This document shows, one piece after another, positions 1-64,000 of a stretch of DNA of 64,000 nucleotides (position 1 is the stretch's first letter; every line of letters begins with the position of its first letter). The stretch covers positions 164,796,001 through 164,860,000 of the forward strand of contig OZ024742.1 of the NCBI GenBank assembly GCA_964016885.1. Direction: 5' to 3'. The notes beneath the pieces are model-generated. The model saw only the letters and a list, made by a program, of their open reading frames with translations, was not told the origin of the DNA and ran no database searches. A program made the position numbers and the translations under genes. This DNA is from Eledone cirrhosa. Lineage: Eukaryota.

Positions 1-127
1 GCTGGAAATTATCTCCCCTTGGAGGCTGGAATTTATCTCCCCTTGGACGGCTAGAAATTACCTCTCCTTGGACGGCTGGAAAATATGTCTCCTTGGACGG
101 CTGGATATTATCTACCCTTGGACGGCT

Positions 128-152
128 GGAAATTATCTCCCCTTGGACGGCT
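128..152 (+). repeat. Representative type A monomer, 25 bp: GGAAATTATCTCCCCTTGGACGGCT
   Basis: Read directly; it is followed immediately by another copy starting at 153. 13/25 GC with one CpG and no stop codon in any + frame. Confidence 0.97.
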
Positions 153-314
153 GGAAATTATCTCCCCTTGGACGGCTAGATATTACCTCCCCTTGGACGG
201 CTGGAAATTATCTCCCCTTGATTTTTTTTACAAATTATCTCCCCCTGATTTTTTTTTACGAATTATCTCCCCCTGATTTTTTTTTACAAATTATCTCCGC
301 CTGATTTTTTTTTA

Positions 315-455
315 AAATTATCTCCCCTTGAACGGCTGGAAATTATCTCCCCTTGGACGGCTGGAAATTATCTCCCCTTGGACGGCTAGAAATTACCTCT
401 CCTTGGACGGCTGAAAATTATCTCCCCTTGGACGGCTGCAAATTATCTCCCCTTG
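315..455 (+). repeat. A-cassette class III (5 monomers)
   Basis: TTGAACGGCTGG > canonical > GGCTAGAAATTACCTCTCC > GGCTGAAAATT > GGCTGCAAATT > TTGATTTTTTAACAAA; also at about 5500, 6540, 12050, 14395, 16805, 17845, 20795 and later. Confidence 0.88.
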
Positions 456-949
456 ATTTTTTTAACAAATTATCTCCCCCTGATTTTTTTTTACAAATTA
501 TCTCCCCCTGATTTTTTTTTACAAATTATCTACGCCTAATTTTTTTTACAAATTATCTCCCCCTGATTTTTTTTACAAATTATCTCCCCCTGATTTTTTT
601 TACAAATTATCTCCCCCTGATTTTTTTTTACAAATTATCTCCCCCTGATTTTTTTACAAATTATCTCCCCCCTGATTTTTTTTACAATCTCCGCCTGATT
701 TTTTTAAAAATTATCTTCCCTTGGCTGGCAGGAAATTATCTCCCCTTGGACGGCTGAAAATTATCTCCCCTTGGACGGCTGGAAATTATCTCCCCTTGAT
801 TTTTTTTACAAATTATCTCCCCCTGATTTTTTTTTACAAATTATCTCCCCCTGATTTTTTTTACAAATTATCTCCCCCTGATTTTTTTTTACAAATTATC
901 TGCCCCTGATTTTTTTTACAAATTATCTCCCCCTGATTTTTTTACAAAT

Positions 950-1185
950 TATCTCCCCTTGGCTGGCTGGAAATTATCTCCCCTTGGAGGCTGGAATTTA
1001 TCTCCCCTTGGACGGCTAGAAATTACCTCTCCTTGGACGGCTGGAAAATATTTCTCCTTGGACGGCTGGATATTATCTACCCTTGGACGGGTGGAAATTA
1101 TCTCCCCTTGGACGGCTGGAAATTATCTCCCCTTGGACGGCTAGATATTACCTCCCCTTGGACGGCTGGAAATTATCTACCCTTG
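950..1185 (+). repeat. A-cassette class I (about 9 monomers, about 225-250 bp) with a fixed order of variants
   Basis: Order is TTGGCTGGCTGG > TTGGAGGCTGGAATTT > GGCTAGAAATTACCTCTCC > GGAAAATAT(G/T)TCTCC > GGATATTATCTACCC > 1-2 canonical > GGCTAGATATTACCTCCCC > canonical > B run. It recurs dozens of times (the 'MAGWKLSPLGGWNL' pseudo-ORFs). Confidence 0.92.
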
Positions 1186-1384
1186 ATTTTTTTTACAAAT
1201 TATCTCCCCCTGATTTTTTTTACAAATTATCTCCACCTGATTTTTTTACAAATTATCTCCCCCTGATTTTTTTTACAAATTATCTCCCCCTGATTTTTTT
1301 TTTACAAATTATCTCCCCCTGATTTTTTTACAAATTATCTCCCCCTGATTTTTTTTACAAATTATCTCCGCCTGATTTTTTTAA

Positions 1385-1475
1385 ATATTATCTTCCCTTG
1401 GCTGGCGGGAAATTATCTCCCCTTGGACGGCTGAAAATTATCTCCCCTTGGACGGCTGGAAATTATCTCCCCTTG
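1385..1475 (+). repeat. A-cassette class II (2-3 monomers)
   Basis: AAATATTATCTTCCCTTGGCTGGCGGG > GGCTGAAAATT > canonical > B run, typically preceded by a CTCCGCCT B variant; also at about 2030, 3725, 4540, 7610, 15535, 19455. Confidence 0.88.
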
Positions 1476-2589
1476 ATTTTTTTTACAAATTATCTCCCCC
1501 TGATTATTTTTTACAAATTATCTTTCCCTGATTTTTTTTTACAAATTATCTCCCCCTGATTTTTTATACAAATTATCTCCCCCTGATTTTTTTACAAATT
1601 ATCTCCCCTTGGCTGGCTGGAAATTATCTCCCCTTGGAGGCTGGAATTTATCTCCCCTTGGACGGCTGGAAATTATCTCTCCTTGGACGGCTAGTAATTA
1701 CCTCTCCTTGGACGGCTGGAAAATATGTCTCGTTGGAGGGCTGGAAATTATCTCCCCTTGGACGGCTGGAAATTATCTCCCCTTGGACGGCTGGAAATTA
1801 TCTCTCCTTGGACGGCTAGAAATTACCTCTCCTTGGACGGCTGAAAATTATCTCCCCTTGGACGGCTAGATATTACCTCCCCTTGGACGGCTGGAAATTA
1901 TCTCCCCTTGATTTTTTTTACAAATTATCTCCCCCTGATTTTTTTTACAAATTATCTCCACCTGATTTTTTTACAAATTATCTCCCCCTGATTTTTTTTA
2001 CAAATTATCTCCGCCTAATTTTTTTAAATATTATCTTCCCTTGGCTGGCGGGAAATTATCTCCCCTTGGACGGCTGAAAATTATCTCCCCTTGGACGGCT
2101 GGAAATTATCTCCCCTTGATTTTTTTTACAAATTATCTCCCCCTGATTTTTTTTTACAAATTATCTCCCCCTGATTTTTTTTTACAAATTATCTCCCCCT
2201 GATTTTTTTTTACAAATTATCTCCCCCTGATTTTTTTTACAAATTATCTCCCCTTGGCTGGCTGGAAATTATCTCCCCTTGGAGGCTGGAATTTATCTCC
2301 CCTTGGACGGCTAGAAATTACCTCTCCTTGGACGGCTGGAAAATATGTCCTTGGACGGCTGGATATTATCTACCCTTGGACGGCTGGAAATTATCTCCCC
2401 TTGGACGGCTGGAAATTATCTCCCCTTGGAGGCTGGAATTTATCTCCCCTTGGACGGCTAGAAATTACCTCTCCTTGGACGGCTGGAAAATATGTCCTTG
2501 GACGGCTGGATATTACCTCCCCTTGGACGGCTGGAAATTATCTCCCCTTGATTTTTTTTACAAATAATCTCCCCCTGATTTTTTTTACA

Positions 2590-3000
2590 AATCTAATGAT
2601 TTTTTAAAAAAAATTATCTCCCCTTCGCTGGCTGGAAATTATCTCCCCTTCGCTGGCTGGAAATTATCTCCCCTTGGACGCTGGAAATTATAGCCCCTTG
2701 GAGGGCTGGAAATTATCTTCCCTTGGACGGCTGGAAATTATCTCCCCTTGGCTCGAAATTATCTCCCCTTGGACGGCTAGAAATTATCTCTCTTTGGACG
2801 GCTGGAAATTATCTCCCTTTGATTTTTTTTACAAATTATCTCCCCCTGATTTTTTTTACAAATCTCCCCCTGATTTTTTAAAAAAAATTATCTCCCCTTC
2901 GCTGTCTGGAAATTATCTCCCCTTGGACACTGGAAATTATAGCCCCTTGGAGGGCTGGAAATTATCTTCCCTTGGACGGCTGGAAATTATCTCTGCTTGA
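2590..3000 (+). repeat. Divergent landmark block (about 410 bp) of atypical monomers
   Basis: Contains AATCTAATGAT, TTCGCTGGCTGG, GGACGCTGG, TTATAGCCCC, GGCTCGAAATT, GGACACTGG and CTCTGCTTGA. Full copies at about 8812-9222, 45741-46150 and 55234-55643; partial copy at about 59488-59562. Confidence 0.9.
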
Positions 3001-4197
3001 TTTTTTTTACAAATTATCTCCCCCTGATTTTTTTTTACAAATTATCCCCCCCGATTTTTTTTACAAATTATCTCCCCCTGATTTTTTTTACAAATTATCT
3101 CCCCTTGGACGGCTGGAAATTATCTCCCCTTGGACGGCTGGAAATTATCTCCCCTTGGACGGCTAGAAATTACCTCTCCTTGGACGACTGAAAATTATCT
3201 CCCCTTGGACGGCTGCAAATTATCTCCCCTTGATTTTTTTTACAAATTATCTCCGCCTGATTTTTTTTTTAAAATTATCTCCCCTTGGACGGCTGGAAAT
3301 TACCTCCCCTTGGACGGCTGGAAATTATCTCCCCTTGGACGGCTAGAAATTACCTCTCATTGGACGGCTGAAAATTATCTCCCCTTGGACGGCTGGAAAT
3401 TATCTCCCCTTGATTTTTTTTTACAAATTATCTCCCCCTGATTTTTTTTTACAAATTATCTCCCCCTGATTTTTTTTTTACAAATTATCTCCGCCTGATT
3501 TTTTTTTAAAATTATCTCTCCTTGGACGGCTGGATATTATCTCCCCTTTCATTTTTTTTACAAATTATCTCCCCCTGATTTTTTTTTACAAATTATCTCC
3601 CCCTGATTTTTTTTTACAAATTATCTACCCCTAATTTTTTTTTACAAATTATCTCCCCCTGATTTTTTTACAAATTATCTCCCCCTGATTTTTTTTACAA
3701 ATTATCTCCGCCTGATTTTTTTAAATATTATCTTCTCTTGGCTGGCGGGAAATTATCTCCCCTTGGACGGCTGAAAATTATCTCCCCTTGGACGGCTGGA
3801 AATTATCTCCCCTTGATTTTTTTTACAAATTATCTCCCCCTGATTTTTTTTTACAAATTATCTCCCCCTGATTTTTTTTACAAATTATCTCCCCCTGATT
3901 TTTTTTTACAAATTATCTCCCCCTGATTTTTTTTACAAATTATCTCCCCCTGATTTTTTTACAAATTATCTCCCCTTGGCTGGCTGGAAATTATCTCCCC
4001 TTGGAGGCTGGAATTTATCTCCCCTTGGACGGCTAGAAATTACCTCTCCTTGGACGGCTGGAAAATATGTCCTTGGACGGCTGGATATTATCTACCCTTG
4101 GACGGCTGGAAATTATCTCCCCTTGGACGGCTGGAAATTATCTCCCCTTGGACGGCTAGATATTACCTCCCCTTGGACGGCTGGAAATTATCTCCCC

Positions 4198-9807: not shown

Positions 9808-9980
9808 TTATCTTCCCTTGGCTGGCGGGAAATTATCTCCCCTTGGACGGCTGGAAATTATATCCCCTTGGAAGGATGGAAATTATCTCCCCTTGGACGG
9901 CTGGAAATTATCTCCCCTTGGACGGCTGGAAATTACCTCCCCTTGGACAGCTGGAAATTATCTGCCCTTGATTTTGTTTT
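9808..9980 (+). repeat. A-cassette class IV (about 6 monomers)
   Basis: CTTCCCTTGGCTGGCGGG > ATTATATCCCC > TTGGAAGGATGG > canonical x2 > GGACAGCTGG > ATCTGCCCTTGATTTTGTTTTT; matches the 'WKDG' pseudo-ORFs at 9818, 14800, 18250, 18718, 23429, 27038, 32199, 35805, 36273, 39427, 40862, 43655, 45010, 50355, 53148, 54503, 62495. Confidence 0.88.
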
Positions 9981-16700: not shown

Positions 16701-19700
16701 CCCCTGATTTTTTTTTACAAATTATCTCCCCCTGATTTTTTTTTACGAATTATCTCCCCCCGATTTTTTTTTACAAATTATCTCCGCCTGATTTTTTTTT
16801 AAAAATTATCTCCCCTTGAACGGCTGGAAATTATCTCCCCTTGGACGGCTGGAAATTATCTCCCCTTGGACGGCTAGAAATTACCTCTCCTTGGACGGCT
16901 GAAAATTATCTCCCCTTGGACGGCTGCAAATTATCTCCCCTTGATTTTTTAACAAATTATCTCCCCCTGATTTTTTTTTACAAATTATCTCCCCCTGATT
17001 TTTTTTTACAAATTATCTCCCCCTGATTTTTTTTTACAAATTATCTCCCCCTGATTTTTTTTACAATCTCCGCCTGATTTTTTAAAAAATTATCTTCCCT
17101 TGGCTGGCGGGAAATTATCTCCCCTTGGACGGCTGGAAATTATCTCCCCTTGATTTTTTTACAAATTATCTCCCCCTGATTTTTTTTACAAATTATCTCC
17201 CCCTGATTTTATGTTACAAATTATCTCCCCCTGATTTTTTTACAAATTATCTCCCCCTGATTTTTTTTACAAATTATCTCCGCCTGATTTTTTTAAATAT
17301 TATCTTCCCTTGGCTGGCGGGAAATTATCTCCCCTTGGACGGCTGGAAATTATCTCCCCTTGATTTTTTTTACAAATTATCTCCCCCTGATTTTTTTTTA
17401 CAAATTATCTCCCCCTGATTTTTTTTTACAAATTATCTCCCCCTGATTTTTTTTTACAAATTATCTCCCCCTGATTTTTTTTTACAAATCTCCCCCTGAT
17501 TTTTTTATAAATTATCTCCCCTTGGCTGGCTGGAAATTATCTCCCCTTGGAGGCTGGAATTTATCTCCCCTTGGACGGCTAGAAATTACCTCTCCTTGGA
17601 TGGCTGGAAAATATGTCTCCTTGGACGGCTGGATATTATCTACCCTTGGACGGCTGGAAATTATCTCCCCTTGGACGGCTGGAAATTATCTCCCCTTGGA
17701 CGGCTAGATATTACCTCCCATTGGACGGCTGGAAATTATCTCCCCTTGATTTTTTTTACAAATTATCTCCCCCTGATTTTTTTTTACGAATTATCTCCCC
17801 CTGATTTTTTTTTACAAATTATCTCCGCCTGATTTTTTTTTAAAAATTATCTCCCCTTGAACGGCTGGAAATTATCTCCCCTTGGACGGCTGGAAATTAT
17901 CTCCCCTTGGACGGCTAGAAATTACCTCTCCTTGGACTGCTGAAAATTATCTCCCCTTGGACGGCTGCAAATTATCTCCCCTTGATTTTTTTAACAAATT
18001 ATCTCCCCCTGATTTTTTTTTACAAATTATCTCCCCCTGATTTTTTTTTACAAATTATCTACGCCTAATTTTTTTTACAAATTATCTCCCCCTGATTTTT
18101 TTTTACAAATTATCTCCCCCTGATTTTTTTTACAAATTATCTCCCCCTGATTTTTTTTACAAATTATCTCCCCCTGATTTTTTTACAAATTATCTCCCCC
18201 CTGATTTTTTTTACAATCTCCGCCTGATTTTTTTAAAAATTATCTTCCCTTGGCTGGCGGGAAATTATCTCCCCTTGGACGGCTGGAAATTATATCCCCT
18301 TGGAAGGATGGAAATTATCTCCCCTTGGACGGCTGGAAATTATCTCCCCTTGGACGGCTGGAAATTACCTCCCCTTGGACAGCTGGAAATTATCTGCCCT
18401 TGATTTTGTTTTTACAAATTATCTCCCCCTGATTTTTTTTACAAATTATCTCCACCTGATTTTTTAAAAAATTATCTCCCCTTGGACGGCTGGAAATTAT
18501 CTCCCCTTGGACGGCTGGAAATTATCTCCCCTTGATTTTTTTTACAAATTATCTCCCCCTGATTTTTTTTTACAAATTATCTCCCCCTGATTTTTTTTAC
18601 AAATTATCTCCCCCTGATTTTTTTTTACAAATTATTTCCCCCTGATTTTTTTACAAATTATCTCCCCCCTGATTTTTTTTACAATCTCCGCCTGATTTTT
18701 TTAAAAATTATCTTCCCTTGGCTGGCGGGAAATTATCTCCCCTTGGACGGCTGGAAATTATATCCCCTTGGAAGGATGGAAATTATCTCCCCTTGGACGG
18801 CTGGAAATTATCTCCCCTTGGACGGCTGGAAATTATCTCCCCTTGGACAGCTGGAAATTATCTGCCCTTGATTTTGTTTTTACAAATTATCTCCCCCTGA
18901 TTTTTTTTACAAATTATCTCCACCTGATTTTTTAAAAAATTATCTCCCCTTGGACGGCTGGAAATTATCTCCCCTTGATTTTTTTTACAAATTATCTCCC
19001 CCTGATTTTTTTTTACAAATTATCTCCCCCTGATTTTTTTTACAAATTATCTCCCCCTGATTTTTTTTTACAAATTATCTCACCCTGATTTTTTTTACAA
19101 ATTATCTCTCCCTGATTTTTTTACAAATTATCTCCCCTTGGCTGGCTGGAAATTATCTCCCCTTGGAGGCTGGAATTTATCTCCCCTTGGACGGCTAGAA
19201 ATTACCTCTCCTTGGACGGCTGGAAAATATGTCTCCTTGGACGGCTGGATATTATCTACCCTTGGACGGCTGGAAATTATCTCCCCTTGGACGGCTGGAA
19301 ATTATCTCCTCTTGGACGGCTAGATATTACCTCCCCTTGGACGGCTGGAAATTATCTCCCCTTGATTTTTTTACAAATTATCTCCCCCTGATTTTTTTAC
19401 AAATTATCTCCCCCTGATTTTTTTTACAAATTATCTCCGCCTAATTTTTTTAAATATTATCTTCCCTTGGCTGGCGGGAAATTATCTCCCCTTGGACGGC
19501 TGAAAATTATCTCCCCTTGGACGGCTGGAAATTATCTCCCCTTGATTTTTTTTACAAATTATCTCCCCCTGATTTTTTTTTACAAATTATCTCCCCCTGA
19601 TTTTTTTTACAAATTATCTCCTGATTTTTTTACAAATTATCTCCCCTTGGCTGGCTGGAAATTATCTCCCCTTGGAGGCTGGAATTTATCTCCCCTTGGA

Positions 19701-22700
19701 CGGCTAGAAATTACCTCTCCTTGGAAGGCTGGAAAATATGTCCTTGGACGGCTGGATATTATCTACCCTTGGACGGCTGGAAATTATCTCCCCTTGGACG
19801 GCTGGAAATTATCTCCCCTTGGACGGCTAGATATTACCTCCCCTTGGACGGCTGAAAATTATCTCCCCTTGGACGGCTGGAAATTATCTCCCCTTGATTT
19901 TTTTTACAAATTATCTCCCCCTGATTATTTTTTACAAATTATCCCCTGATTTTTTTTTTACAAATTATCTCCCCCTGATTTTTTTTACAAATTATCTCCC
20001 CCTGATTTTTTTACAAATTATCTCCCCTTGGCTGGCTGGAAATTATCTCCCATTGGAGGCTGGAATTTATCTCCCCTTGGACGGTTAGAAATTACCTCCC
20101 CTTGGACGGCTGGAAAATATGTCTCCTTGGACGGCTGGAAATTATCGCCCCTTGGACGGCTGGAAATTATCTCCCCTTGGACGGCTGGAAATTATCTCTC
20201 ATCGGACGGCTAGAAATTACCTCTCCTTGGACAGCTGAAAATTATCTCCCCTTGGACGGCTGGAAATTATCTCCCCTTGATTTTTTTTACAAATTATCTC
20301 CCCCTGATTTTTTTTTACAAATTATCTCCCCCTGATTTTTTTTTACAAATTATCTCCCCCTGATTTTTTTTTACAAATTATCTCCCCCTGATATTTTTTA
20401 CAAATTATCTCCCCCTGATTTTTTTACAAATTATCTCCCCTTGGCTGGCTGGAAATTATCTCCCCTTGGAGGCTGGAATTTATCTCCCCTTGGACGGCTA
20501 GAAATTACCTCGCCTTGGACGGCTGGAAAATATGTCTCCTTGGACGGCTGGAAATTATCTCCCCTTGGACGGCTGGAAATTATCTCCCCTTGGACAGCTG
20601 GAAATTATCTCCCCTTGGACGGCTAGATATTACCTCCCCTTGGACGGCTGGAAATTATCTCCCCTTGATTTTTTTTACAAATTATCTCCCCCTGATTTTT
20701 TTTTACAAATTATCTCCCCCTGATTTTTTTTTACGAATTATCTCCCCCCGATTTTTTTTTACAAATTATCTCCGCCTGATTTTTTTTTAAAAATTATCTC
20801 CACTTGAACGGCTGGAAATTATCTCCCCTTGGACGGCTGGAAATTATCTCCCCTTGGACGGCTAGAAATTACCTCTCCTTGGACGGCTGAAAATTATCTC
20901 CCCTTGGACGGCTGCAAATTATCTCCCCTTGATTTTTTAACAAATTATCTCCCCCTGATTTTTTTTTACAAATTATCTCCCCCTGATTTTTTTTTACAAA
21001 TTATCTCCCCCTGATTTTTTTTTACAAATTATCTCCCCCTGATTTTTTTACAAATTATCTCCCCCTGATTTTTTTTACAATCTCCGCCTGATTTTTTAAA
21101 AAATTATCTTCCCTTGGCTGGCGGGAAATTATCTCCCCTTGGACGGCTGGAAATTATCTCCCCTTGGACGGCTGGAAATTATCTCCCCTTGGACAGCTGG
21201 AAATTATCTGCCCTTGATTTTGTTTTTACAAATTATCTCCCCCTGATTTTTTTTACAAATTATCTCCACCTGATTTTTTAAAAAATTATCTCCCCTTGGA
21301 CGGCTGGAAATTATCTCCCCTTGATTTTTTTACAAATTATCTCCCCCTGATTTTTTTTACAAATTATCTCCCCCTGATTTTATGTTACAAATTATCTCCC
21401 CCTGATTTTTTTACAAATTATCTCCCCCTGATTTTTTTTACAAATTATCTCCGCCTGATTTTTTTAAATATTATCTTCCCTTGGCTGGCGGGAAATTATC
21501 TCCCCTTGGACGGCTGGAAATTATCTCCCCTTGATTTTTTTTACAAATTATCTCCCCCTGATTTTTTTTTACAAATTATCTCCCCCTGATTTTTTTTTAC
21601 AAATTATCTCCCCCTGATTTTTTTTTACAAATTATCTCCCCCTGATTTTTTTTTACAAATCTCCCCCTGATTTTTTTATAAATTATCTCCCCTTGGCTGG
21701 CTGGAAATTATCTCCCCTTGGAGGCTGGAATTTATCTCCCCTTGGACGGCTAGAAATTACCTCTCCTTGGATGGCTGGAAAATATGTCTCCTTGGACGGC
21801 TGGATATTATCTACCCTTGGACGGCTGGAAATTATCTCCCCTTGGACGGCTGGAAATTATCTCCCCTTGGACGGCTAGATATTACCTCCCATTGGACGGC
21901 TGGAAATTATCTCCCCTTGATTTTTTTTACAAATTATCTCCCCCTGATTTTTTTTTACGAATTATCTCCCCCTGATTTTTTTTTACAAATTATCTCCGCC
22001 TGATTTTTTTTTTAAAATTATCTCCCCTTGAACGGCTGGAAATTATCTCCCCTTGGACGGCTGGAAATTATCTCCCCTTGGACGGCTAGAAATTACCTCT
22101 CCTTGGACGGCTGGAAATTATCTCCCCTTGGACGGCTGCAAATTATCTCCCCTTGATTTTTTTAACAAATTATCTCCCCCTGATTTTTTTTTACAAATTA
22201 TCTCCCCCTGATTTTTTTTACAAATTATCTACGCCTAATTTTTTTTACAAATTATCTCCCCCTGATTTTTTTTTACAAATTATCTCCCCCTGATTTTTTT
22301 TACAAATTATCTCCCCTTGGCTGGCTGGAAATTATCTCCCCTTGGAGGCTGGAATTTATCTCCCCTTGGACGGTTAGAAATTACCTCTCCTTGGACTGCT
22401 GGAAAATATGTCTCCTTGGACGGCTGGAAATTATCTCCCCTTGGACGGCTGGAAATTATCTCCCCTTGGACGGCTGGAAATTATCTCTCCTCGGACGACT
22501 AGAAATTACCTCTCCTTGGACAGCTGAAAATTATCTCCCCTTGGACGGCTGGAAATTATCTCCCCTTGATTTTTTTTACAAATTATCTCCCCCTGATTTA
22601 TTTTACAAATTATCTCCCCCTGATTTTTTTTTACAAATTATCTCCCCCTGATTTTTTTTACAAATTATCTCCCCCTGATATTTTTTACAAATTATCTCCC

Positions 22701-40082: not shown

Positions 40083-43000
40083 TTGGCTGGCTGGAAATTA
40101 TCTCCCCTTGGAGGCTGGAATTTATCTCCCATTGGACGGCTAGAAATTACCTCTCCTTGGAAGGCTGGAAAATATTTCTCCTTGGACGGCTGGATATTAT
40201 CTACCCTTGGACGGGTGGAAATTATCTCCCCTTGGACGGCTGGAAATTATCTCCCCTTGGACAGCTAGATATTACCTCCCCTTGGACGGCTGGAAATTAT
40301 CTCCCCTTGATTTTTTTTACAAATTATCTCCCCCTGATTTTTTTTACAAATTATCTCCACCTGATTTTTTTACAAATTATCTCCCCCTGATTTTTTTTAC
40401 AAATTATCTCCCCCTGATTTTTTTACAAATTATCTCCCCTTGGCTGGCTGGAAATTATCTCCCCTTGGAGGCTGGAATTTATCTCCCCTTGGACGGCTGG
40501 AAATTATCTCCCCTTGATTTTTTTTACAAATTATCTACCCCTGATTTTTTTTACAAATTATCTCCCCCTGATTTTTTTTACAAATTATCTCCCCCTGATT
40601 TTTTTACAAATTATCTCCCCCTGATTTTTTTACAAATTATCTCCCCCTGATTTTTTTTTACAAATTATCTACGCCTAATTTTTTTTACAAATTATCTCCC
40701 CCTGATTTTTTTTTACAAATTATCTCCCCCTGATTTTTTTTTACAAATTATCTCCCCCTGATTTTTTTTTACAAATTATCTCCCCCTGATTTTTTTACAA
40801 ATTATCTCCCCCCTGATTTTTATTACAATCTCCGCCTGATTTTTTAAAAAATTATCTTCCCTTGGCTGGCGGGAAATTATCTTCCCTTGGACGGCTGGAA
40901 ATTATATCCCCTTGGAAGGATGGAAATTATCTCCCCTTGGACGGCTGGAAATTATCTCCCCTTGGACGGCTGGAAATTATCTCCCCTTGGACAGCTGGAA
41001 ATTATCTGCCCTTGATTTTGTTTTTACAAATTATCTCCCCCTGATTTTTTTTACAAATTATCTCCACCTGATTTTTTAAAAAATTATCTCCCCTTGGACG
41101 GCTGGAAATTATCTCCCCTTGGCTGGAAATTATCTCCCCTTGGACGGCTAGAAATTATCTCTCTTTGGACGGCTGGAAATTATCTGCCTTTGATTTTTTT
41201 TACAAATTATCTCCCCCTGATTTTTTTTTACAAATTATCTCACCCTGATTTTTTTTACAAATTATCTCCCTCTGATTTTTTTACAAATTATCTCCCCTTG
41301 GCTGGCTGGAAATTATCTCCCCTTGGAGGCTGGAATTTATCTCCCCTTGGACGGCTAGAAATTACCTCTCCTTGGACGGCTGGAAAATATGTCTCCTTGG
41401 ACGGCTGGATATTATCTACCCTTGGACGGCTGGAAATTATCTCCCCTTGGACGGCTGGAAATTATCTCCCCTTGGACGGCTAGATATTACCTCCCCTTGG
41501 ACGGCTGGAAATTATCTCCCCTTGATTTTTTTACAAATTATCTCCCCCTGATTTTTTTACAAATTATCTCCCCCTGATTTTTTTTACAAATTATCTCCGC
41601 CTAATTTTTTTAAATATTATCTTCCCTTGGCTGGCGGGAAATTATCTCCCCTTGGACGGCTGAAAATTATCTCCCCTTGGACGGCTGGAAATTATCTCCC
41701 CTTGATTTTTTTTACAAATTATCTGCCCCTGATTTTTTTTTACAAATTATCTCCCCCTGATTTTTTTTACAAATTATCTCCCCCTGATTTTTTTACAAAT
41801 TATCTCCCCTTGGCTGGCTGGAAATTATCTCCCCTTGGAGGCTGGAATTTATCTCCCCTTGGACGGCTAGAAATTACCTCTCCTTGGACGGCTGGAAAAT
41901 ATGTCCTTGGACGGCTGGATATTATCTACCCTTGGACGGCTGGAAATTATCTCCCCTTGGACGGCTGGAAATTATCTCCCCTTGGACGGCTAGATATTAC
42001 CTCCCCTTGGACGGCTGGAAATTATCTCCCCTTGATTTTTTTTACAAATTATCTCCCCCTGATTTTTTTTTACAAATTATCTCCCCCTGATTTTTTTTTA
42101 CAAATTATCTACCCCTGATTTTTTTTTACAAATTATCTCCCCCTGATTTTTTTTACAAATTATCTCCCCCTGATTTTTTTTTACAAATTATCTCCCCCTG
42201 ATTTTTTTTTACAAATTATCTACCCCTGATTTTTTTTACAAATTATCTCACCCTGATTTTTTTTACAAATTATCTCCCCCTGATTTTGTTTACAAATTAT
42301 CTCCCCCTGATTTTTTTACAAATTATCTCCCCCTGATTTTTTTTACAAATTATCTCCGCCTAATTTTTTTAAATATTATATTCCCTTGGCTGGCGGGAAA
42401 TTATCTCCCCTTGGACGGCTGAAAATTATCTCTCCTTGGACGGCTGGAAATTATCTCCCCTTGATTTTTTTTACAAATTATCTCCCCCTGATTATTTTTT
42501 ACAAATTATCTCCCCCTGATTTTTTTTTACAAATTATCTCCCCCTGATTTTTTTTACAAATTATCTCCCCCTGATTTTTTTACAAATTATCTCCCCTTGG
42601 CTGGCTGGAAATTATCTCCCCTTGGAGGCTGGAATTTATCTCCCCTTGGACGGTTAGAAATTACCTCTCCTTGGACGGCTGGAAAATATGTCTCCTTGGA
42701 CGGCTGGAAATTATCGCCCCTTGGACGGCTGGAAATTATCTCCCCTTGGACGGCTGGAAATTATCTCTCCTCGGACGGCTAGAAATTACCTCTCCTTGGA
42801 CAGCTGAAAATTATCTCCCCTTGGACGGCTGGAAATTATCTCCCCTTGATTTTTTTTACAAATTATCTCCCCCTGATTTTTTTTTACAAATTATCTCCCC
42901 CTGATTTTTTTTTACAAATTATCTCCCCCTGATTTTTTTTTACAAATTATCTCCCCCTGATATTTTTTACAAACTATCTCCCCCTGATTTTTTTACAAAT

Positions 43001-46000
43001 TATCTCCCCTTGGCTGGCTGGAAATTATCTCCCCTTGGAGGCTGGAATTTATCTCCCCTTAGACGGCTAGAAATTACCTCGCCTTGGACGGCTGGAAAAT
43101 ATGTCTCCTTGGACGGCTGGAAATTATCTCCCCTTGGACGGCTGGAAATTATCTCCCCTTGGACGGCTGGAAATTATCTCCCCTTGGACGGCTAGATATT
43201 ACCTCCCCTTGGACGGCTGGAAATTATCTCCCCTTGATTTTTTTTACAAATTATCTCCCCCTGATTTTTTTTTACAAATTATCTCCCCCTGATTTTTTTT
43301 TACGAATTATCTCCCCCCGATTTTTTTTTACAAATTATCTCCGCCTGATTTTTTTAAAAAAATTATCTCCCCTTGAACGGCTGGAAATTATCTCCCCTTG
43401 GACGGCTGGAAATTATCTCCCCTTGGACGGCTAGAAATTACCTCTCCTTGGACGGCTGAAAATTATCTCCCCTTGGACGGCTGCAAATTATCTCCCCTTG
43501 ATTTTTTAACAAATTATCTCCCCCTGATTTTTTTTTACAAATTATCTCCCCCTGATTTTTTTTTACAAATTATCTCCCCCTGATTTTTTTACAAATTATC
43601 TCCCCCTGATTTTTTTTACAATCTCCGCCTGATTTTTTTAAAAATTATCTTCCCTTGGCTGGCGGGAAATTATCTCCCCTTGGACGGCTGGAAATTATAT
43701 CCCCTTGGAAGGATGGAAATTATCTCCCCTTGGACGGCTGGAAATTATCTCCCCTTGGACGGCTGGAAATTATCTCCCCTTGGACAGCTGGAAATTATCT
43801 GCCCTTGATTTTGTTTTTACAAATTATCTCCCCCTGATTTTTTTTACAAATTATCTCCACCTGATTTTTTAAAAAATTATCTCCCCTTGGACGGCTGGAA
43901 ATTATCTCCCCTTGATTTTTTTACAAATTATCTCCCCCTGATTTTTTTTACAAATTATCTCCCCCTGATTTTTTGTTACAAATTATCTCCCCCTGATTTT
44001 TTTAAAAATTATCTCCCCCTGATTTTTTTTACAAATTATCTCCGCCTGATTTTTTTAAATATTATCTTCCCTTGGCTGGCGGGAAATTATCTCCCCTTGG
44101 ACGGCTGAAAATTATCTCCCCTTGGACGGCTGGAAATTATCTCCCCTTGATTTTTTTACAAATTATCTCCCCCTGATTTTTTTTTACAAATTATCTCCCC
44201 CTGATTTTTTTTACAAATTATCTCCCCCTGATTTTTTTTTACAAATTATCTCCCCCTGATTTTTTTACAAATTATCTCCCCTTGGCTAGCTGGAAATTAT
44301 CTCCCCTTGGAGGCTGGAATTTATCTCCCCTTGGACGGCTAGAAATTACCTCTCCTTGGACGGCTGGAAAATATGTCTCCTTGGACGGCTGGATATTATC
44401 TACCCTTGGACGGCTGGAAATTATCTCCCCTTGGACGGCTGGAAATTATCTCCCCTTGGACGGCTAGATATTACCTCCCCTTGGACGGCTGGAAATTATC
44501 TCCCCTTGATTTTTTTTACAAATTATCTCCCCCTGATTTTTTTTTACGAATTATCTCCCCCTGATTTTTTTTTACAAATTATCTCCGCCTGATTTTTTTT
44601 TTAAATTATCTCCCCTTGAACGGCTGGAAATTATCTCCCCTTGGACGGCTGGAAATTATCTCCCCTTGGACGGCTAGAAATTACCTCTCCTTGGACGGCT
44701 GAAAATTATCTCCCCTTGGACGGCTGCAAATTATCTCCCCTTGATTTTTTTAACAAATTATCTCCCCCTGATTTTTTTTTACAAATTATCTCCCCCTGAT
44801 TTTTTTTTACAAATTATCTACGCCTAATTTTTTTTACAAATTATCTCCCCCTGATTTTTTTTTACAAATTATCTCCCCCTGATTTTTTTTACAAATTATC
44901 TCCCCCTGATTTTTTTTTACAAATTATCTCCCCCTGATTTTTTTACAAATTATCTCCCCCCTGAATTTTTTTACAATCTCCGCCTGATTTTTTAAAAAAT
45001 TATCTTCCCTTGGCTGGCAGGAAATTATCTCCCCTTGGTCGGCTGGAAATTATATCCCCTTGGAAGGATGGAAATTATCTCCCCTTGGACGGCTGGAAAT
45101 TATCTCCCCTTGGACGGCTGGAAATTACCTCCCCTTGGACAGCTGGAAATTATCTGCCCTTGATTTTGTTTTTACAAATTATCTCCCCCTGATTTTTTTT
45201 ACAAATTATCTCCACCTGATTTTTTAAAAAATTATCTCCCCTTGATTTTTTTACAAATTATCTCCCCCTGATTTTTTTTACAAATTATCTCCCCCTGATT
45301 TTTTTTTTACAAATTATCTCCCCCTGATTTTTTTACAAATTATCTCCCCCTGATTTTTTTTACAAATTATCTCCGCCTGATTTTTTTTACAAATTATCTC
45401 CCCTTGGCTGGCTGGAAATTATCTCCCCTTGGAGGCTGGAATTTATCTCCCCTTGGACGGCTAGAAATTACCTCTCCTTGGACGGCTGGAAAATATGTCC
45501 TTGGACGGCTGGATATTATCTACCCTTGGACGGCTGGAAATTATCTCCCCTTGGACGGCTGGAAATTATCTCCCCTTGGAGGCTGGAATTTATCTCCCCT
45601 TGGACGGCTAGAAATTACCTCTCCTTGGACGGCTGGAAAATATGTCCTTGGACGGCTGGATATTACCTCCCCTTGGACGGCTGGAAATTATCTCCCCTTG
45701 ATTTTTTTTACAAATTATCTCCCCCTGATTTTTTTTACAAATCTAATGATTTTAAAAAAAAAATTATCTCCCCTTCGCTGGCTGGAAATTATCTCCCCTT
45801 CGCTGGCTGGAAATTATCTCCCCTTGGACGCTGGAAATTATAGCCCCTTGGAGGGCTGGAAATTATCTTCCCTTGGACGGCTGGAAATTATCTCCCCTTG
45901 GCTCGAAATTATCTCCCCTTGGACGGCTAGAAATTATCTCTCTTTGGACGGCTGGAAATTATCTCCCTTTGATTTTTTTTACAAATTATCTCCCCCTGAT

Positions 46001-49000
46001 TTTTTTTACAAATCTCCCCCTGATTTTTTAAAAAAAATTATCTCCCCTTCGCTGGCTGGAAATTATCTCCCCTTGGACACTGGAAATTATAGCCCCTTGG
46101 AGGGCTGGAAATTATCTTCCCTTGGACGGCTGGAAATTATCTCTGCTTGATTTTTTTTACAAATTATCTCCCCCTGATTTTTTTTTACAAATTATCCCCC
46201 CCGATTTTTTTTACAAATTATCTCCCCCTGATTTTTTTTACAAATTATCTCCCCTTGGACGGCTGGAAATTATCTCCCCTTGGACGGCTGGAAATTATCT
46301 CCCCTTGGACGGCTAGAAATTACCTCTCCTTGGACGACTGAAAATTATCTCCCCTTGGACGGCTGCAAATTATCTCCCCTTGATTTTTTTTACAAATTAT
46401 CTCCGCCTGATTTTTTTTTTAAAATTATCTCCCCTTGGACGGCTGGAAATTACCTCCCCTTGGACGGCTGGAAATTATCTCCCCTTGGACGGCTAGAAAT
46501 TACCTCTCATTGGACGGCTGAAAATTATCTCCCCTTGGACGGCTGGAAATTATCTCCCCTTGATTTCTTTTACAAATTATCTCCCCCTGATTTTTTTTTA
46601 CAAATTATCTCCCCCTGATTTTTTTTTTACAAATTATCTCCGCCTGATTTTTTTTTAAAATTATCTCTCCTTGGACGGCTGGATATTATCTCCCCTTTCA
46701 TTTTTTTTACAAATTATCTCCCCCTGATTTTTTTTTACAAATTATCTCCCCCTGATTTTTTTTTTACAAATTATCTACCCCTAATTTTTTTTTACAAATT
46801 ATCTCCCCCTGATTTTTTTTACAAATTATCTCCCCCTGATTTTTTTTTTACAAATTATCTCCCCCTGATTTTTTTACAAATTATCTCCCCCTGATTTTTT
46901 TTACAAATTATCTCCGCCTGATTTTTTTAAATATTATCTTCTCTTGGCTGGCGGGAAATTATCTCCCCTTGGACGGCTGAAAATTATCTCCCCTTGGACG
47001 GCTGGAAATTATCTCCCCTTGATTTTTTTTACAAATTATCTCCCCCTGATTTTTTTTTACAAATTATCTCCCCCTGATTTTTTTTACAAATTATCTCCCC
47101 CTGATTTTTTTTTACAAATTATCTCCCCCTGATTTTTTTTACAAATTATCTCCCCCTGATTTTTTTACAAATTATCTCCCCTTGGCTGGCTGGAAATTAT
47201 CTCCCCTTGGAGGCTGGAATTTATCTCCCCTTGGACGGCTAGAAATTACCTCTCCTTGGACGGCTGGAAAATATGTCCTTGGACGGCTGGATATTATCTA
47301 CCCTTGGACGGCTGGAAATTATCTCCCCTTGGACGGCTGGAAATTATCTCCCCTTGGACGGCTAGATATTACCTCCCCTTGGACGGCTGGAAATTATCTC
47401 CCCTTGATTTTTTTTACAAATTATCCCCCCCTGATTTTTTTTTACAAATTATCTTCCCCTGATTTTTTTTTACAAATTATCTACCCCTGATTTTTTTTTA
47501 CAAATTATCTCCCCCTAATTTTTTTTACAAATTATCTCTCCCTGATTTTTTTTTACAAATTATCTCCCCCTGATTTTTTTTTACAAATTATCTACCCCTG
47601 ATTTTTTTTTACAAATTATCTCCCCCTGATTTTTTTTACAAATTATCTCCCCCTGATTTTTTTTACAAATTATCTCCCCCTGATTTTTTTACAAATTATC
47701 TCCCCCCGATTTTTTTTACAAATTATCTCCGCCTAATTTTTTTAAATATTATCTTCCCTTGGCTGGCGGGAAATTATCTCCCCTTGGACGGCTGAAAATT
47801 ATCTCCCCTTGGACGGCTGGAAATTATCTCCCCTTGATTTTTTTACAAATTATCTCCCCCTGATTATTTTTTACAAATTATCTCCCCCTGATTTTTTTTT
47901 ACAAATTATCTCCCTCTCATTTTTTTTACAAATTATCTCCCCTTGGCTGGCTGGAAATTATCTCCCCTTGGAGGCTGGAATTTATCTCCACTTGGACGGT
48001 TAGAAATTACCTCTCCTTGGACTGCTGGAAAATATGTCTCCTTGGACGGCTGGAAATTATCTCCCCTTGGACGGCTGGAAATTATCTCCCCTTGGACGGC
48101 TGGAAATTATCTCTCCTCGGACGACTAGAAATTACCTCTCCTTGGACAGCTGAAAATTATCTCCCCTTGGACGGCTGGAAATTATCTCCCCTTGATTTTT
48201 TTTACAAATTATCTCCCCCCGATTTTTTTTTACAAATTATCTCCCCCTGATTTTTTTTTACAAATTATCTCCCCCTGATTTTTTTTACAAATTATCTCCC
48301 CCTGATATTTTTTACAAATTATCTCCCCCTGATTTTTTTACAAATTATCTCCCCTTGGCTGGCTGGAAATTATCTCCCCTTGGAGGCTGGAATTTATCTC
48401 CCCTTGGACGGCTAGAAATTACCTCGCCTTGGACGGCTGGAAAATATGTCTCCTTGGACGGCTGGAAATTATCTCCCCTTGGACGGCTGGAAATTATCTC
48501 CCCTTGGACGGCTGGAAATTATCTCCCCTTGGACGGCTAGATATTACCTCCCCTTGGACGGCTGGAAATTATCTCCCCTTGATTTTTTTTACAAATTATC
48601 TCCCCCTGATTTTTTTTTTAAATTATCTCCCCTTGAACGGCTGGAAATTATCTCCCCTTGGACGGCTGGAAATTATCTCCCCTTGGACGGCTAGAAATTA
48701 CCTCTCCTTGGACGGCTGAAAATTATCTCCCCTTGGACGGCTGCAAATTATCTCCCCTTGATTTTTTAACAAATTATCTCCCCCTGATTTTTTTTTACAA
48801 ATTATCTCCCCCTGATTTTTTTTTACAAATTATCTACGCCTAATTTTTTTTACAAATTATCTCCCCCTGATTTTTTTTTACAAATTATCTCCCCCTGATT
48901 TTTTTTACAAATTATCTCCCCCTGATTTTTTTTTACAAATTATTTCCCCCTGATTTTTTTACAAATTATCTCCCCCCTGATTTTTTTTACAATCTCCGCC

Positions 49001-59040: not shown

Positions 59041-62000
59041 ACGGCTAGATATTACCTCCCCTTGGACGACTGGAAATTATCTCCCCTTGATTTTTTTTAC
59101 AAATTATCTCCCCCTGATTTTTTTTTTACAAATTATCTCCCCCTGATTTTTTTACAAATTATCTCCCCCTGATTTTTTTTACAAATTATCTCCGCCTGAT
59201 TTTTTTAAATATTATCTTCTCTTGGCTGGCGCGAAATTATCTCCCCTTGGACGGCTGAAAATTATCTCCCCTTGGACGGCTGGAAATTATCTCCCCTTGA
59301 TTTTTTTTACAAATTATCTCCCCCTGATTTTTTTTAAAAAATTATCTCCCCCTGATTTTTTTTTACAAATTATCTCCCCCTGATTTTTTTTTACAAATTA
59401 TCTCCCCCTGATTTTTTTTACAAATTATCTCCCCCTGATTTTTTTACAAATTATCTCCCCTTGGCTGGCTGGAAATTATCTCCCCTTGGACACTGTAAAT
59501 TATAGCCCCTTGGAGGGCTGGAAATTATCTTACCTTGGACGGCTGGAAATTATCTCTGCTTGATTTTTTTTACAAATTATCTCCCCCTGATTTTTTTTTA
59601 CAAATTATCCCCCCCGATTTTTTTTACAAATTATCTCCCCCTGATTTTTTTTACAAATTATCTCCCCTTGGACGGCTGGAAATTATCTCCCCTTGGACGG
59701 CTGGAAATTATCTCTCCTTGGACGGCTAGAAATTACCTCTCCTTGGACGACTGAAAATTATCTCCCCTTGGACGGCTGCAAATTATCTCCCCTTGATTTC
59801 TTTTACAAATTATCTCCGCCTGATTTTTTTTTTAAAATTATCTCCCCTTGGACGGCTGGAAATTACCTCCCCTTGGACGGCTGGAAATTATCTCCCCTTG
59901 GACGGCTAGAAATTACCTCTCATTGGACGGCTGAAAATTATCTCCCCTTGGACGGCTGGAAATTATCTCCCCTTGATTTTTTTTACAAATTATCTCCCCC
60001 TGATTTTTTTTTTACAAATTATCTCCGCCTGATTTTTTTTTAAAATTATCTCTCCTTGGACGGCTGGATATTATCTCCCCTTTCATTTTTTTTACAAATT
60101 ATCTCCCCCTGATTTTTTTTTACAAATTATCTCCCCCTGATTTTTTTTTACAAATTATCTACCCCTAATTTTTTTTTACAAATTATCTCCCCCTGATTTT
60201 TTTTACAAATTATCTCCCCCTGATTTTTTTTTTACAAATTATCTCCCCCTGATTTTTTTACAAATTATCTCCCCCTGATTTTTTTTACAAATTATCTCCG
60301 CCTGATTTTTTTAAATATTATCTTCTCTTGGCTGGCGGGAAATTATCTCCCCTTGGACGGCTGAAAATTATCTCCCCTTGGACGGCTGGAAATTATCTCC
60401 CCTTGATTTTTTTTACAAATTATCTCCCCCTGATTTTTTTTTACAAATTATCTCCCCCTGATTTTTTTTTACAAATTATCTCCCCCTGATTTTTTTTTAC
60501 AAATTATCTCCCCCTGATTTTTTTTACAAATTATCTCCCCCTGATTTTTTTACAAATTATCTCCCCTTGGCTGGCTGGAAATTATCTCCCCTTGGAGGCT
60601 GGAATTTATCTCCCCTTGGACGGCTAGAAATTACCTCTCCTTGGACGGCTGGAAAATATGTCCTTGGACGGCTGGATATTATCTACCCTTGGACGGCTGG
60701 AAATTATCTCCCCTTGGACGGCTGGAAATTATCTCCCCTTGGACGGCTAGATATTACCTCCCCTTGGACGGCTGGAAATTATCTCCCCTTGATTTTTTTT
60801 ACAAATTATCTCCCCCTGATTTTTTTTTACAAATTATCTCCCCCTGATTTTTTTTTACAAATTATCTCCGCCTGATTTTTTTTTACAAATTATCTCCCCC
60901 TAATTTTTTTTACAAATTATCTCTCCCTGATCTTTTTTTACAAATTATCTCCCCCTGATTTTTTTTTACCAATTATCTACCCCTGATTTTTTTTTACAAA
61001 TTATCTCCCCCTTATTTTTTTTACAAATTATCTCCCCCTGATTTTTTTTACAAATTATCTCCCCCTGATTTTTTTACAAATTATCTCCCCCCGATTTTTT
61101 TTACAAATTATATCCGCCTAATTTTTTAAATATTATCTATCCTTGGCTGGCGGGAAATTATCTCCCCTTGGACGGCTGAAAATTTTCTCCCCTTGGACGG
61201 CTGGAAATTATCTCCCCTTGATTTTTTTACAAATTATCTCCCCCTGATTATTTTTTACAAATTATCTCCCCCTGATTTTTTTTTACAAATTATCTCCCTC
61301 TGATTTTTTTTACAAATTATCTCCCCTTGGCTGGCTGGAAATTATCTCCCCTTGGAGGCTGGAATTTATCTCCCCTTGGACGGTTAGAAATTACCTCTCC
61401 TTGGACTGCTGGAAAATATGTCTCCTTGGACGGCTGGAAATTATCTCCCCTTGGACGGCTGGAAATTATCTCCCCTTGGACGGCTGGAAATTATCTCTCC
61501 TCGGACGACTAGAAATTACCTCTCCTTGGACAGCTGAAAATTATCTCCCCTTGGACGGCTGGAAATTATCTCCCCTTGATTTTTTTTACAAATTATCTCC
61601 CCCTGATTTATTTTACAAATTATCTCCCCCTGATTTTTTTTTACAAATTATCTCCCCCTGATTTTTTTTACAAATTATCTCCCCCTGATATTTTTTACAA
61701 ATTATCTCCCCCTGATTTTTTTACAAATTATCTCCCCTTGGCTGGCTGGAAATTATCTACCCTTGGAGGCTGGAATTTATCTCCCCTTGGACGGCTAGAA
61801 ATTACCTCGCCTTGGACGGCTGGAAAATATGTCTCCTTGGACGGCTGGAAATTATCTCCCCTTGGACGGCTGGAAATTATCTCCCCTTGGACGGCTGGAA
61901 ATTATCTCCCCTTGGACGGCTAGATATTACCTCCCCTTGGACGGCTGGAAATTATCTCCCCTTGATTTTTTTTACAAATTATCTCCCCCTGATTTTTTTT

Positions 62001-64000
62001 TACAAATTATCTCCCCCTGATTTTTTTTTACGAAGTATCTCCCCCTGATTTTTTTTTACAAATTATCTCCGCCTGATTTTTTTTAAAAAATTATCTCCCC
62101 TTGAACGGCTGGAAATTATCTCCCCTTGGACGGCTGGAAATTATCTCCCCTTGGACGGCTAGAAATTACCTCTCCTTGGACGGCTGAAAATTATCTCCCA
62201 TTGGACGGCTGCAAATTATCTCCCCTTGATTTTTTAACAAATTATCTCCCCCTGATTTTTTTTTACAAATTATCTCCCCCTGATTTTTTTTTACAAATTA
62301 TCTACGCCTAATTTTTTTTACAAATTATCTCCCCCTGATTTTTTTTATACAAATTATCTCCCCCTGATTTTTTTTACAAATTATCTCCCCCTGATTTTTT
62401 TTTACAAATTATTTCCCCCTGATTTTTTTACAAATTATCTCCCCCCTGATTTTTTTTACAATCTCCGCCTGATTTTTTTAAAAATTATCTTCCCTTGGCT
62501 GGCGGGAAATTATCTCCCCTTGGACGGCTGGAAATTATATCCCCTTGGAAGGATGGAAATTATCTCCCCTTGGACGGCTGGAAATTATCTCCCCTTGGAC
62601 GGCTGGAAATTATCTCCCCTTGGACAGCTGGAAATTATCTGTCCTTGATTTTGTTTTTACAAATTATCTCCCCCTGATTTTTTTTACAAATTATCTCCAC
62701 CTGATTTTTTAAAAAATTATCTCCCCTTGGACGGCTGGAAATTATCTCCCCTTGATTTTTTTTACAAATTATCTCCCCCTGATTTTTTTTTACAAATTAT
62801 CTCCCCCTGATTTTTTTTTACAAATTATCTCCCCCTGATATTTTTTACAAATTATCTCCCCCTGATTTTTTTACAAATTATCTCCCCTTGGCTGGCTGGA
62901 AATTATCTCCCCTTGGAGGCTGGAATTTATCTCCCCTTGGACGGCTAGAAATTACCTCGCCTTGGACGGCTGGAAAATATGTCTCCTTGGACGGCTGGAA
63001 ATTATCTCCCCTTGGACGGCTGGAAATTATCTCCCCTTGGACAGCTGGAAATTATCTCCCCTTGGACGGCTAGATATTACCTCCCCTTGGACGGCTGGAA
63101 ATTATCTCCCCTTGATTTTTTTTACAAATTATCTCCCCCTGATTTTTTTTTACAAATTATCTCCCCCGGATTTTTTTTACGAATTATCTCCCCCCGATTT
63201 TTTTTACAAATTATCTCCGGCTGATTTTTTTTTAAAAATTATCTCCCCTTGAACGGCTGGAAATTATCTCCCCTTGGACGGCTGGAAATTATCTCCCCTT
63301 GGACGGCTAGAAATTACCTCTCCTTGGACGGCTGAAAATTATCTCCCCTTGGACGGCTGCAAATTATCTCCCCTTGATTTTTTAACAAATTATCTCCCCC
63401 TGATTTTTTTTTACAAATTATCTCCCCCTGATTTTTTTTTACAAATTATCTCCCCCTGATTTTTTTTTACAAATTATCTCCCCCTGATTTTTTTACAAAT
63501 TATCTCCCCCTGATTTTTTTTACAATCTCCGCCTGATTTTTTAAAAAATTATCTTCCCTTGGCTGGCGGGAAATTATCTCCCCTTGGACGGCTGGAAATT
63601 ATCTCCCCTTGGACGGCTGGAAATTATCTCCCCTTGGACAGCTGGAAATTATCTGCCCTTGATTTTGTTTTTACAAATTATCTCCCCCTGATTTTTTTTA
63701 CAAATTATCTCCACCTGATTTTTTAAAAAATTATCTCCCCTTGGACGGCTGGAAATTATCTCCCCTTGATTTTTTTACAAATTATCTCCCCCTGATTTTT
63801 TTTACAAATTATCTCCCCCTGATTTTATGTTACAAATTATCTCCCCCTGATTTTTTTACAAATTATCTCCCCCTGATTTTTTTTACAAATTATCTCCGCC
63901 TGATTTTTTTAAATATTATCTTCCCTTGGCTGGCGGGAAATTATCTCCCCTTGGACGGCTGGAAATTATCTCCCCTTGATTTTTTTTACAAATTATCTCC
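59040..64000. repeat. Mosaic segment assembled from pieces matching domains 1 and 2
   Basis: 58937 matches 12896; 59535 and 59693 match 2972 and 3130; 60567 matches 3976; 61327-62311 matches 22317-23301; 62495 matches 14800; 62888 and 63274 match 20441 and 20829. Confidence 0.8.

What the first reader, a model, noticed from the sequence alone, without database searches (positions are those of the whole stretch)
1..64000. Two-letter satellite: a constant core with two alternative unrelated tails, arranged in alternating blocks
Seen: every monomer has the core AAATTATCTCCCC(C/T)TG followed either by a GC-rich tail GACGGCTGG (A) or by an AT-rich tail A-T7..10-AC (B). The two tails are not alignable, and the types come in homogeneous runs rather than strictly alternating or at random. 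Known: HOR satellites such as primate alpha satellite use diverged monomers of one family and similar length. Inference: this is a less usual block-copolymer design in which the core is preserved at 25-29 bp spacing over more than 64 kb, compatible with a protein-binding site array or simply with the core acting as recombination microhomology. I do not recognise this family, so it may be undescribed.
Basis: partly seen in the sequence, partly recalled or inferred. Interest (0 to 1): 0.75.

Follow-up and report, generated by a model that had tools for sequence, protein, structure and literature searches.

The report
Hybrid satellite with both parents surviving
This window lies in a multi-million-base repeat, likely of an octopus, made of alternating short blocks of two related 25-29-base units; both units also exist as separate arrays elsewhere in the genome, so the mosaic likely arose when two sister repeats were joined once and then copied, rather than because the shared core has a function.

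Summary
In detail: 1,248 A and 1,220 B monomers tile the window in 441 runs. Junctions are inherited: core base 14 is T at 220 of 220 A-to-B joins but C at 994 of 1,000 B-B joins, and run ends carry fixed variants. Both parent types survive: a diverged pure-B array on C5, and A0/spacer composites lining arrays on C1, C3 and C21; 19-21-bp sisters share the core. Best reading: a chimeric satellite born from one or a few crossovers in the shared core, then amplified passively. It totals roughly 12-16 Mb, near the middle of the four giant chromosomes and C21 of a likely octopod: a pericentromeric candidate, untested, with rival satellites beside it. No paper with the core was found; Dfam and Repbase could not be searched. 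Box-sharing mosaic satellites are known (Meloidogyne). This scan already noted the same satellite on another piece of this genome.

The parts
1..64000 (+). A/B patchwork satellite, all monomers head to tail on one strand; part of a ~2.95-Mb plus-strand array at G000:C3:162.70-165.654 Mb
   Evidence: no minus-strand self match among the long hits; ends at gaps
130..154 (+). Typical A monomer (25 bp: 16-bp core with T at position 14, GC-rich tail)
205..231 (+). First B monomer of a run: A-type core (T at position 14) with the T-rich tail; the inherited A-to-B join
   Evidence: 220 of 220 joins have T
232..259 (+). Inner B monomer (C at position 14); same type as the commonest unit of the pure-B array on C5
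946..970 (+). First A monomer of a run with the run-start variant tail GCTGGCTGG, one change from the A0 tail; the inherited B-to-A join
   Evidence: 81 of 85 copies are first in a run
2735..2755 (+). 21-bp unit with the short tail GCTCG, the tail of the 19-bp C-type sister repeat
   Evidence: (4 copies)
41081..41143 (+). Region with a 21-bp consensus equal to the D-type sister repeat
   Evidence: D array
39961..46434 (+). 6,474-bp block duplicated at 49455-55927 (99.77% identical): recent kb-scale tandem amplification
18780..23428 (+). 4,658-bp block duplicated at 27493-32148 (99.40%)
1..3518 (+). 3,518-bp block duplicated at 6223-9738 (99.77%)

Best explanation
The window is a patchwork of A and B monomer runs that likely arose when two sister satellites sharing a core by descent (an A0-type array and a pure-B array, both still in the genome) were joined by one or a few crossovers in or at the end of that core, and the joined block was then likely amplified passively. 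Shown: the run structure, junction-specific variants, kb-scale duplications, the separate A0 and pure-B arrays and their greater diversity, and equal mutability of core and tail. Inferred: that A0 and pure B are the parents, that run lengths change by in-register slippage or unequal exchange within runs, and that blocks spread between chromosomes by ectopic exchange. The arrays are likely pericentromeric heterochromatin (about 0.55); binding of centromeric histone is untested (about 0.25).
For: Position-14 rule in the window: A-A T 1,023 of 1,026, A-B T 220 of 220, B-A T 219 of 219, B-B C 994 of 1,000; over 67 loci (511 kb, window included) A-B joins carry T 1,089, C 36, A 15 of 1,140. Fresh crossovers in core positions 1-13 would give C. 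Run-end variants are fixed: GCTGGCTGG first in 81 of 85, GCTGGCGGG 65 of 65, AACGGCTGG 26 of 26, GACGGCTGC last in 32 of 32, one B variant last in 68 of 68; only 43 distinct tail strings among the internal A runs. Pure-B array at C5:64.243-64.304 Mb with no A-tail words in 56.5 kb; its commonest unit is the inner B; 229 distinct of 1,016 units (6.7 bits) against 38 of 743 (1.95 bits) in the window. A0 runs with an AT-rich spacer adjoin A/B arrays without a gap at C3:165.8735, C1:251.771, 251.814 and 252.024, and A0 units do so at C21:17.715 Mb; the C1 and C3 joins read lie inside an A/A0 run or at its end; A0 has 148 distinct of 733 against 62 of 538 for A in 30 kb each. Sisters of 19-21 bp with the same core occur in small clusters on C2, C3, C14, C17, C25, C27. 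Main arrays lie at 0.44-0.60 of the length of C1, C2, C3, C4, C5 and C21.
Against: Direction is inferred from diversity only; the C5 array could be a derivative that lost A and aged. The common first-B unit (T14, plain T-run) occurs once in C5, against 19 copies of a T14 unit with an interrupted run. Copy-weighted, the A core varies less than the A tail (0.05 vs 0.08-0.12). B density stays at 14.5-20.4 per kb in all ten array samples, which could mean a preferred ratio. The chain linking the two tails needs 5 edits per step, so their common origin is weak. A second A/B site on C4 at 0.65 of its length and a small array on C21 show that it is not one site per giant chromosome. Only about 0.6 Mb of the arrays was read.
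Confidence: 0.72

Rival explanations
1. The core is a protein-binding box (a Meloidogyne-like centromere box, or the GATA-type site it contains) kept by selection at 25-29 bp spacing, with free tails.
For: The core is shared by at least six tail types; a WGATAR site is intact in 2,058 of 2,466 monomers (the motif's meaning is recalled); copy-weighted A core variation is lower than tail variation; arrays are mid-chromosome.
Against: New substitutions hit core and tail equally; B and A0 cores vary as much as their tails; 45 of 48 possible core substitutions are seen in A0 and in B; the core is eroded in the C5 array; shared descent explains the sharing.
Confidence: 0.1
2. Tails are shuffled continually by recombination in the core, which keeps making new A/B borders.
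For: 36 of 1,140 A-to-B joins carry C14, in several upstream contexts; 23 single-A runs exist.
Against: 0 of 220 such joins in the window; run-end variants are almost perfectly position-bound.
Confidence: 0.06
3. B arose inside an A array (new T-rich tail, then a T-to-C change in inner copies), and the C5 pure-B array is an offshoot.
For: T14 at every A-B join fits a B born on an A core; only one pure-B array was found.
Against: C5 is far more diverse than B in any mosaic sample and has no A remnant; no source for the tail was found in the A0 spacer.
Confidence: 0.1
4. The pattern is an assembly artefact.
For: Several-kb blocks at 99.8% identity; array ends at 200-N gaps.
Against: Four runs under one organism label hold 58-83% of 168 sampled words (may include the source sample); 8 of 8 laid runs under other labels hold pieces of the A-B join; arrays on different chromosomes carry their own variants.
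Confidence: 0.02

Closest known systems
Meloidogyne box-sharing satellites (17-bp Box 1, PMC3694981: abstract and section 13 read; 19-bp box, PMC13404089: passages read)
   Same: Different repeat units share one short motif, occur both as homogeneous arrays and in mixed arrays, and change from one type to another at the motif.
   Different: There the box is more conserved than the rest and co-locates with CenH3, in units of mostly 40-90 bp. Here the core is 60% of a 25-29-bp unit, is not more conserved, and no centromere data exist.
Bovine 1.706 'patchwork' satellite (recalled; one search found no paper on it)
   Same: As recalled: alternating segments of two related short (about 23 bp) repeats inside a larger unit.
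   Different: As recalled: a fixed 2.35-kb unit in a mammal. Here there is no fixed period and both parent types persist as separate arrays. No sequence comparison was made.
Primate alpha-satellite higher-order repeats and layered arrays (recalled)
   Same: Position-specific monomer variants, array-specific homogenisation, more diverged layers at array edges (A0).
   Different: 171-bp monomers of one length and fixed higher-order units there; here no dominant period (best monomer autocorrelation 0.19) and two tail types.

Membership tests
Satellite DNA | Long head-to-tail tandem array, megabase scale | tested here: met
   (14,868 exact copies of one 49-base join)
Satellite DNA | Array-specific homogenisation (concerted evolution) | tested here: met
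   150-mers shared with the window: 83% in the same array nearby, 37% further off, 0-4% on C1, C2, C4 and in the opposite-strand C3 array
Meloidogyne-type conserved-box centromeric repeats | One motif shared by different repeat units | tested here: met
   A, A0, B, C, D, E tails
Meloidogyne-type conserved-box centromeric repeats | Motif more conserved than the rest of the unit | tested here: not met
   only copy-weighted A shows a non-significant difference
Meloidogyne-type conserved-box centromeric repeats | Association with CenH3 | not testable with these tools
   no ChIP or cytology
Canonical higher-order repeat | Fixed multi-monomer unit repeated at one period | tested here: not met
   many offsets (9,493, 6,222, 8,770 bp and others) and weak autocorrelation; A+B block 292 +/- 99 bp
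Centromeric satellite | One large array per chromosome on all or most chromosomes | tested here: not met
   A/B found on C1-C4 and C21 (two sites on C4) of 27 chromosome-sized contigs, plus unplaced C123 and C1499; small arrays may be missed, as C21 was
Centromeric satellite | Position at the primary constriction | tested here: inconclusive
   0.44-0.60 of chromosome length; three other octopods are mostly metacentric (PMC5646656, abstract); no karyotype for this animal
Telomere-associated repeat | Location at chromosome ends | tested here: not met
   no core array in 18 of 18 chromosome-end samples of 3-6 kb; large arrays are internal
Existing Dfam/Repbase entry | Sequence match to a curated repeat | not testable with these tools
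   libraries not available

The most novel reading that the evidence does not exclude
The A/B mosaic is the functional centromere satellite of the four giant, possibly fusion-derived chromosomes of this octopod, and its shared 16-bp core is a bound box that let two sister satellites merge into one centromeric array; the opposite-strand, separately homogenised arrays on C3 (and the two orientations on C2) would mark head-to-head fusion points.
Probability: 0.12. Interest if true: 0.75.

Novelty: new variant of a known kind. Interest (0 to 1): 0.4.

Why it matters
My searches found no paper on cephalopod centromere satellites, so a 12-16-Mb mid-chromosome satellite is a concrete FISH and CENP-A target. 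The genome keeps the likely parents (pure B, A0 composite, 19-21-bp sisters) beside the product, and one diagnostic base separates inherited from new joins, which makes it a clean case for testing how mosaic satellites form. It also shows that a shared core need not mean function.

Tried and rejected
B tail derived from the AT-rich spacer of the A0 composite: best local alignment no better than shuffles in 7 of 7 spacers tested out of 74 (p 0.25-0.92); rejected. 'Only on the four giant chromosomes' (111 of 111 hits on C1-C4, C123, C1499): overturned (C21, second C4 site, pure B on C5). Parent composite as a true subtelomeric repeat: beside telomere-like arrays in 3 of the 4 loci printed, but not seen in 18 chromosome-end samples; left open. 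Nucleosome-length control of blocks: A runs 141 +/- 77, B runs 151 +/- 67, blocks 292 +/- 99 bp; no tight length. Stepwise path from A to B: needs 5 edits per step against 8 with window units alone; weak. Rfam: 0 matches in 4 composite loci. No RNA holder listed. Low-depth holders X8, X12, X15, X17, X20 may be cross-contamination and are not used as evidence of spread; 8 of the 16 runs under other labels were laid. One search used a wrongly phased monomer; its A0 numbers were discarded and redone. Sequence look-up in earlier findings gave only unrelated hits. Literature: 0 papers with the core 13-mer on either strand; searches listed no cephalopod satellite study; 0 occurrences of satellite in PMC12682272 and of satellite, centromer, telomer or tandem repeat in 10.1101/2025.08.29.672809; one search found nothing on the bovine satellite; listing not followed up. 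No supplements were read; repeat libraries in supplements could hold this family.

Full report
Observation. The window is pure satellite. A two-monomer decomposition gives 1,248 A and 1,220 B monomers in 441 runs; the 2,466 internal monomers cover 63,984 bases and form 440 runs against 1,232.8 +/- 24.6 in 1,000 shuffles. A is mostly 25 bp, B 26-29 bp. The perfect 16-bp core is present in 1,505 of 2,466, so 'every monomer' overstates it. There is no single higher-order period; blocks of 2-6.5 kb recur at 98-99.8% identity.

Is the core constrained? In 4,132 A monomers from about 250 kb, rare new substitutions number 61 in 16 core sites and 38 in 9 tail sites (3.81 vs 4.22 per site, p=0.68). Copy-weighted rates are 0.025 vs 0.021 in 4,125 inner B units and 0.076 vs 0.070 in 1,682 A0 units. 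Against this, copy-weighted A core variation is lower than tail variation (0.051 vs 0.083, p=0.12; 0.052 vs 0.123 with a looser match); a few amplified run-end variants explain much of it (inference).

How the borders are made. Core base 14 depends on the neighbours: T in 1,023 of 1,026 A-A, 220 of 220 A-B and 219 of 219 B-A contexts, C in 994 of 1,000 B-B. A fresh crossover in core positions 1-13 from an A run into a B run would bring C. Over 67 loci this is seen in 36 of 1,140 joins, so it happens but rarely. Run ends carry their own variants almost without exception, and the internal A runs reduce to 43 tail strings. The borders are therefore copies of a few founding joins, while runs grow and shrink internally (inference).

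Genomic setting. The window is G000:C3:164,796,001-164,860,000 in a 3.0-Gb assembly. Its array runs from 162.70 to 165.654 Mb between two gaps (sampled); a minus-strand array follows from 165.874 to about 167.9 Mb and a plus-strand one from about 168.75 to 169.105 Mb. Other A/B arrays: C1 251.19-252.02, C2 245.59-251.1, C4 205.5-206.43 and 247.35-247.39, C21 17.542-17.717 Mb, and unplaced C123 and C1499. The total is about 11.6 Mb by scaling one 49-base join (82 in the window, 14,868 in the genome) and about 16 Mb by adding spans (my estimate). C1-C4 are 379-443 Mb, C5 135 Mb. The main arrays lie at 0.44-0.60 of chromosome length. Arrays are homogenised separately. Haemocyanin genes with seven domain matches each and best single-unit matches to 4yd9_C and 1js8_A (659 and 650 bits, against 460 and 372 for 8tnv_A and 1lnl_A) point to a cephalopod, likely an octopod; the identity of those entries and the seven-unit rule are recalled. 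Chromosome ends carry TTAGGG-type repeats in 3 of 18 samples.

The relatives of the monomers. A0 (tail GCCGGCTGG) forms runs separated by an AT-rich spacer; this composite adjoins A/B arrays without a gap on C3 and C1 (two islands of about 43 and 180 kb), and A0 units edge the C21 array. A0 is more diverse than A. A 60-kb pure-B array on C5 has no A-tail word in 56.5 kb, has the inner B as its commonest unit, and is far more diverse than B in the mosaic. Small clusters of 19-bp (C, E) and 21-bp (D) units carry the same core on C2, C3, C14, C17, C25 and C27; C runs sit inside a dispersed composite repeat that elsewhere lacks them (0 of 8 loci had the core). On the A side the series C, D, A0, A needs only small steps (a few substitutions and a 4-bp duplication; read from the sequences). 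The link from E to B is weak, and a spacer origin of B was rejected.

Mechanism (confidence 0.72). A short minisatellite family diversified into GC-tailed and T-tailed members. An A-type and a B-type array were joined through the shared core once or a few times. The B-to-A join fits any crossover in the core; the A-to-B join needs a crossover at the core's end or into a T14 unit, of which C5 holds 25 among 202. The joined block was then amplified by monomer slippage and kb-scale duplication and spread to several chromosomes. The joining, its direction and the spread are inferred. A pericentromeric location is likely from position and from the surrounding satellites, but the satellite is on 5 of 27 chromosome-sized contigs as far as found, and earlier unreviewed notes name other candidates, of which I saw the 196-bp and 91-bp repeats next to A/B arrays.

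Other organisms. Twenty runs under 16 labels hold words of the window. All 8 runs laid from other labels hold pieces of the A-B join. X5-X7 do so at summed depths of thousands and carry variants absent from 511 kb of my loci; one such variant has 0 matches in the whole assembly, which suggests real relatives. The five low-depth runs may be contamination.

Comparison and novelty. The closest described system is the box-sharing satellites of Meloidogyne (PMC3694981, abstract and section 13 read; PMC13404089, passages read): shared motif, mixed and pure arrays, transitions at the motif. This case works like them in architecture but fails the conservation test and lacks centromere data, so it is not filed with them. 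The bovine 1.706 patchwork and alpha-satellite layers are recalled only. PMC12682272 (passages) gives about 30 chromosomes as typical for octopods and reports further fusions in the argonaut; PMC5646656 (abstract) reports mostly metacentric karyotypes in three octopods. No paper holds the core 13-mer, and searches listed no cephalopod satellite study; Dfam and Repbase were not available. The scan has reported the same satellite from another piece of this genome (e1-10323831, e1-10328835); the junction rule and the A0 composite were found here before those notes were read, the pure-B array afterwards by my own search.

Verdict. Real, apparently undescribed in the papers searched, and best explained as a passively amplified hybrid of two sister satellites: a new variant of a known kind, interest 0.4.

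Noticed in passing
L157-L163, L177 (G000:C5:64.243-64.304 Mb): About 60-kb diverged pure-B array, joined without a gap to a ~20-bp AT-rich satellite whose relatives were seen in all 7 samples out to 65.0 Mb, in both orientations, at mid-chromosome.
   Followed up: partly
L013, L061-L072 (C2, C3, C4, C8, C13; further hits on C14): Dispersed 600-900-bp composite repeat (AT-rich fold-back spacer, AAACGAAAC block, GCGCATGC sub-repeats), 822 first-look candidates; beside internal telomere-like arrays at C3:150.93, C13:26.39 and C2:229.95 Mb. Most copies read lack the satellite core.
   Followed up: partly
L080:7560-9080 (C25:17.478 Mb): 1.5-kb cluster holding A0 (minus strand), D (21 bp) and E (19 bp) runs side by side; E-to-C intermediates at C17:20.162 Mb (L175).
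   Followed up: partly
L112, L137 (C1499:1-16000): Unplaced contig starts with TTAGGG, then TTAACT, CCCACC and CCCTAA arrays, resembling a telomere read artefact (recalled); A/B array at about 0.5-1.0 Mb on the same contig. Gaps between were not checked.
   Followed up: no
L111:1-1400 (C123): 196-bp satellite with a CT tract joined directly to an A/B array.
   Followed up: no
C3:162.6-169.1 Mb and flanks on C1, C2, C4, C21: A/B arrays sit among other satellites (23, 9, 55, 56, 88, 12-13, 91 bp); the 9-bp one flanks arrays on C3 and C21, the 12-13-bp type lies near those on C2, C3 and C4, the 91-bp one near C1 and C4.
   Followed up: partly
C3 arrays: The minus-strand array shares 3-4% of 150-mers with the window, the distant plus-strand array at 168.8-169.1 Mb 41%: an inversion, a fusion or mis-scaffolding.
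   Followed up: no
contig lengths: Two-class karyotype: four chromosomes of 379-443 Mb, then 135 Mb and below.
   Followed up: no
L113-L116 (C1:173.7-173.9, C26:21.9-22.0 Mb): Five haemocyanin gene clusters of seven strong domain matches each, the C26 pair inverted, plus two matches on C27.
   Followed up: partly
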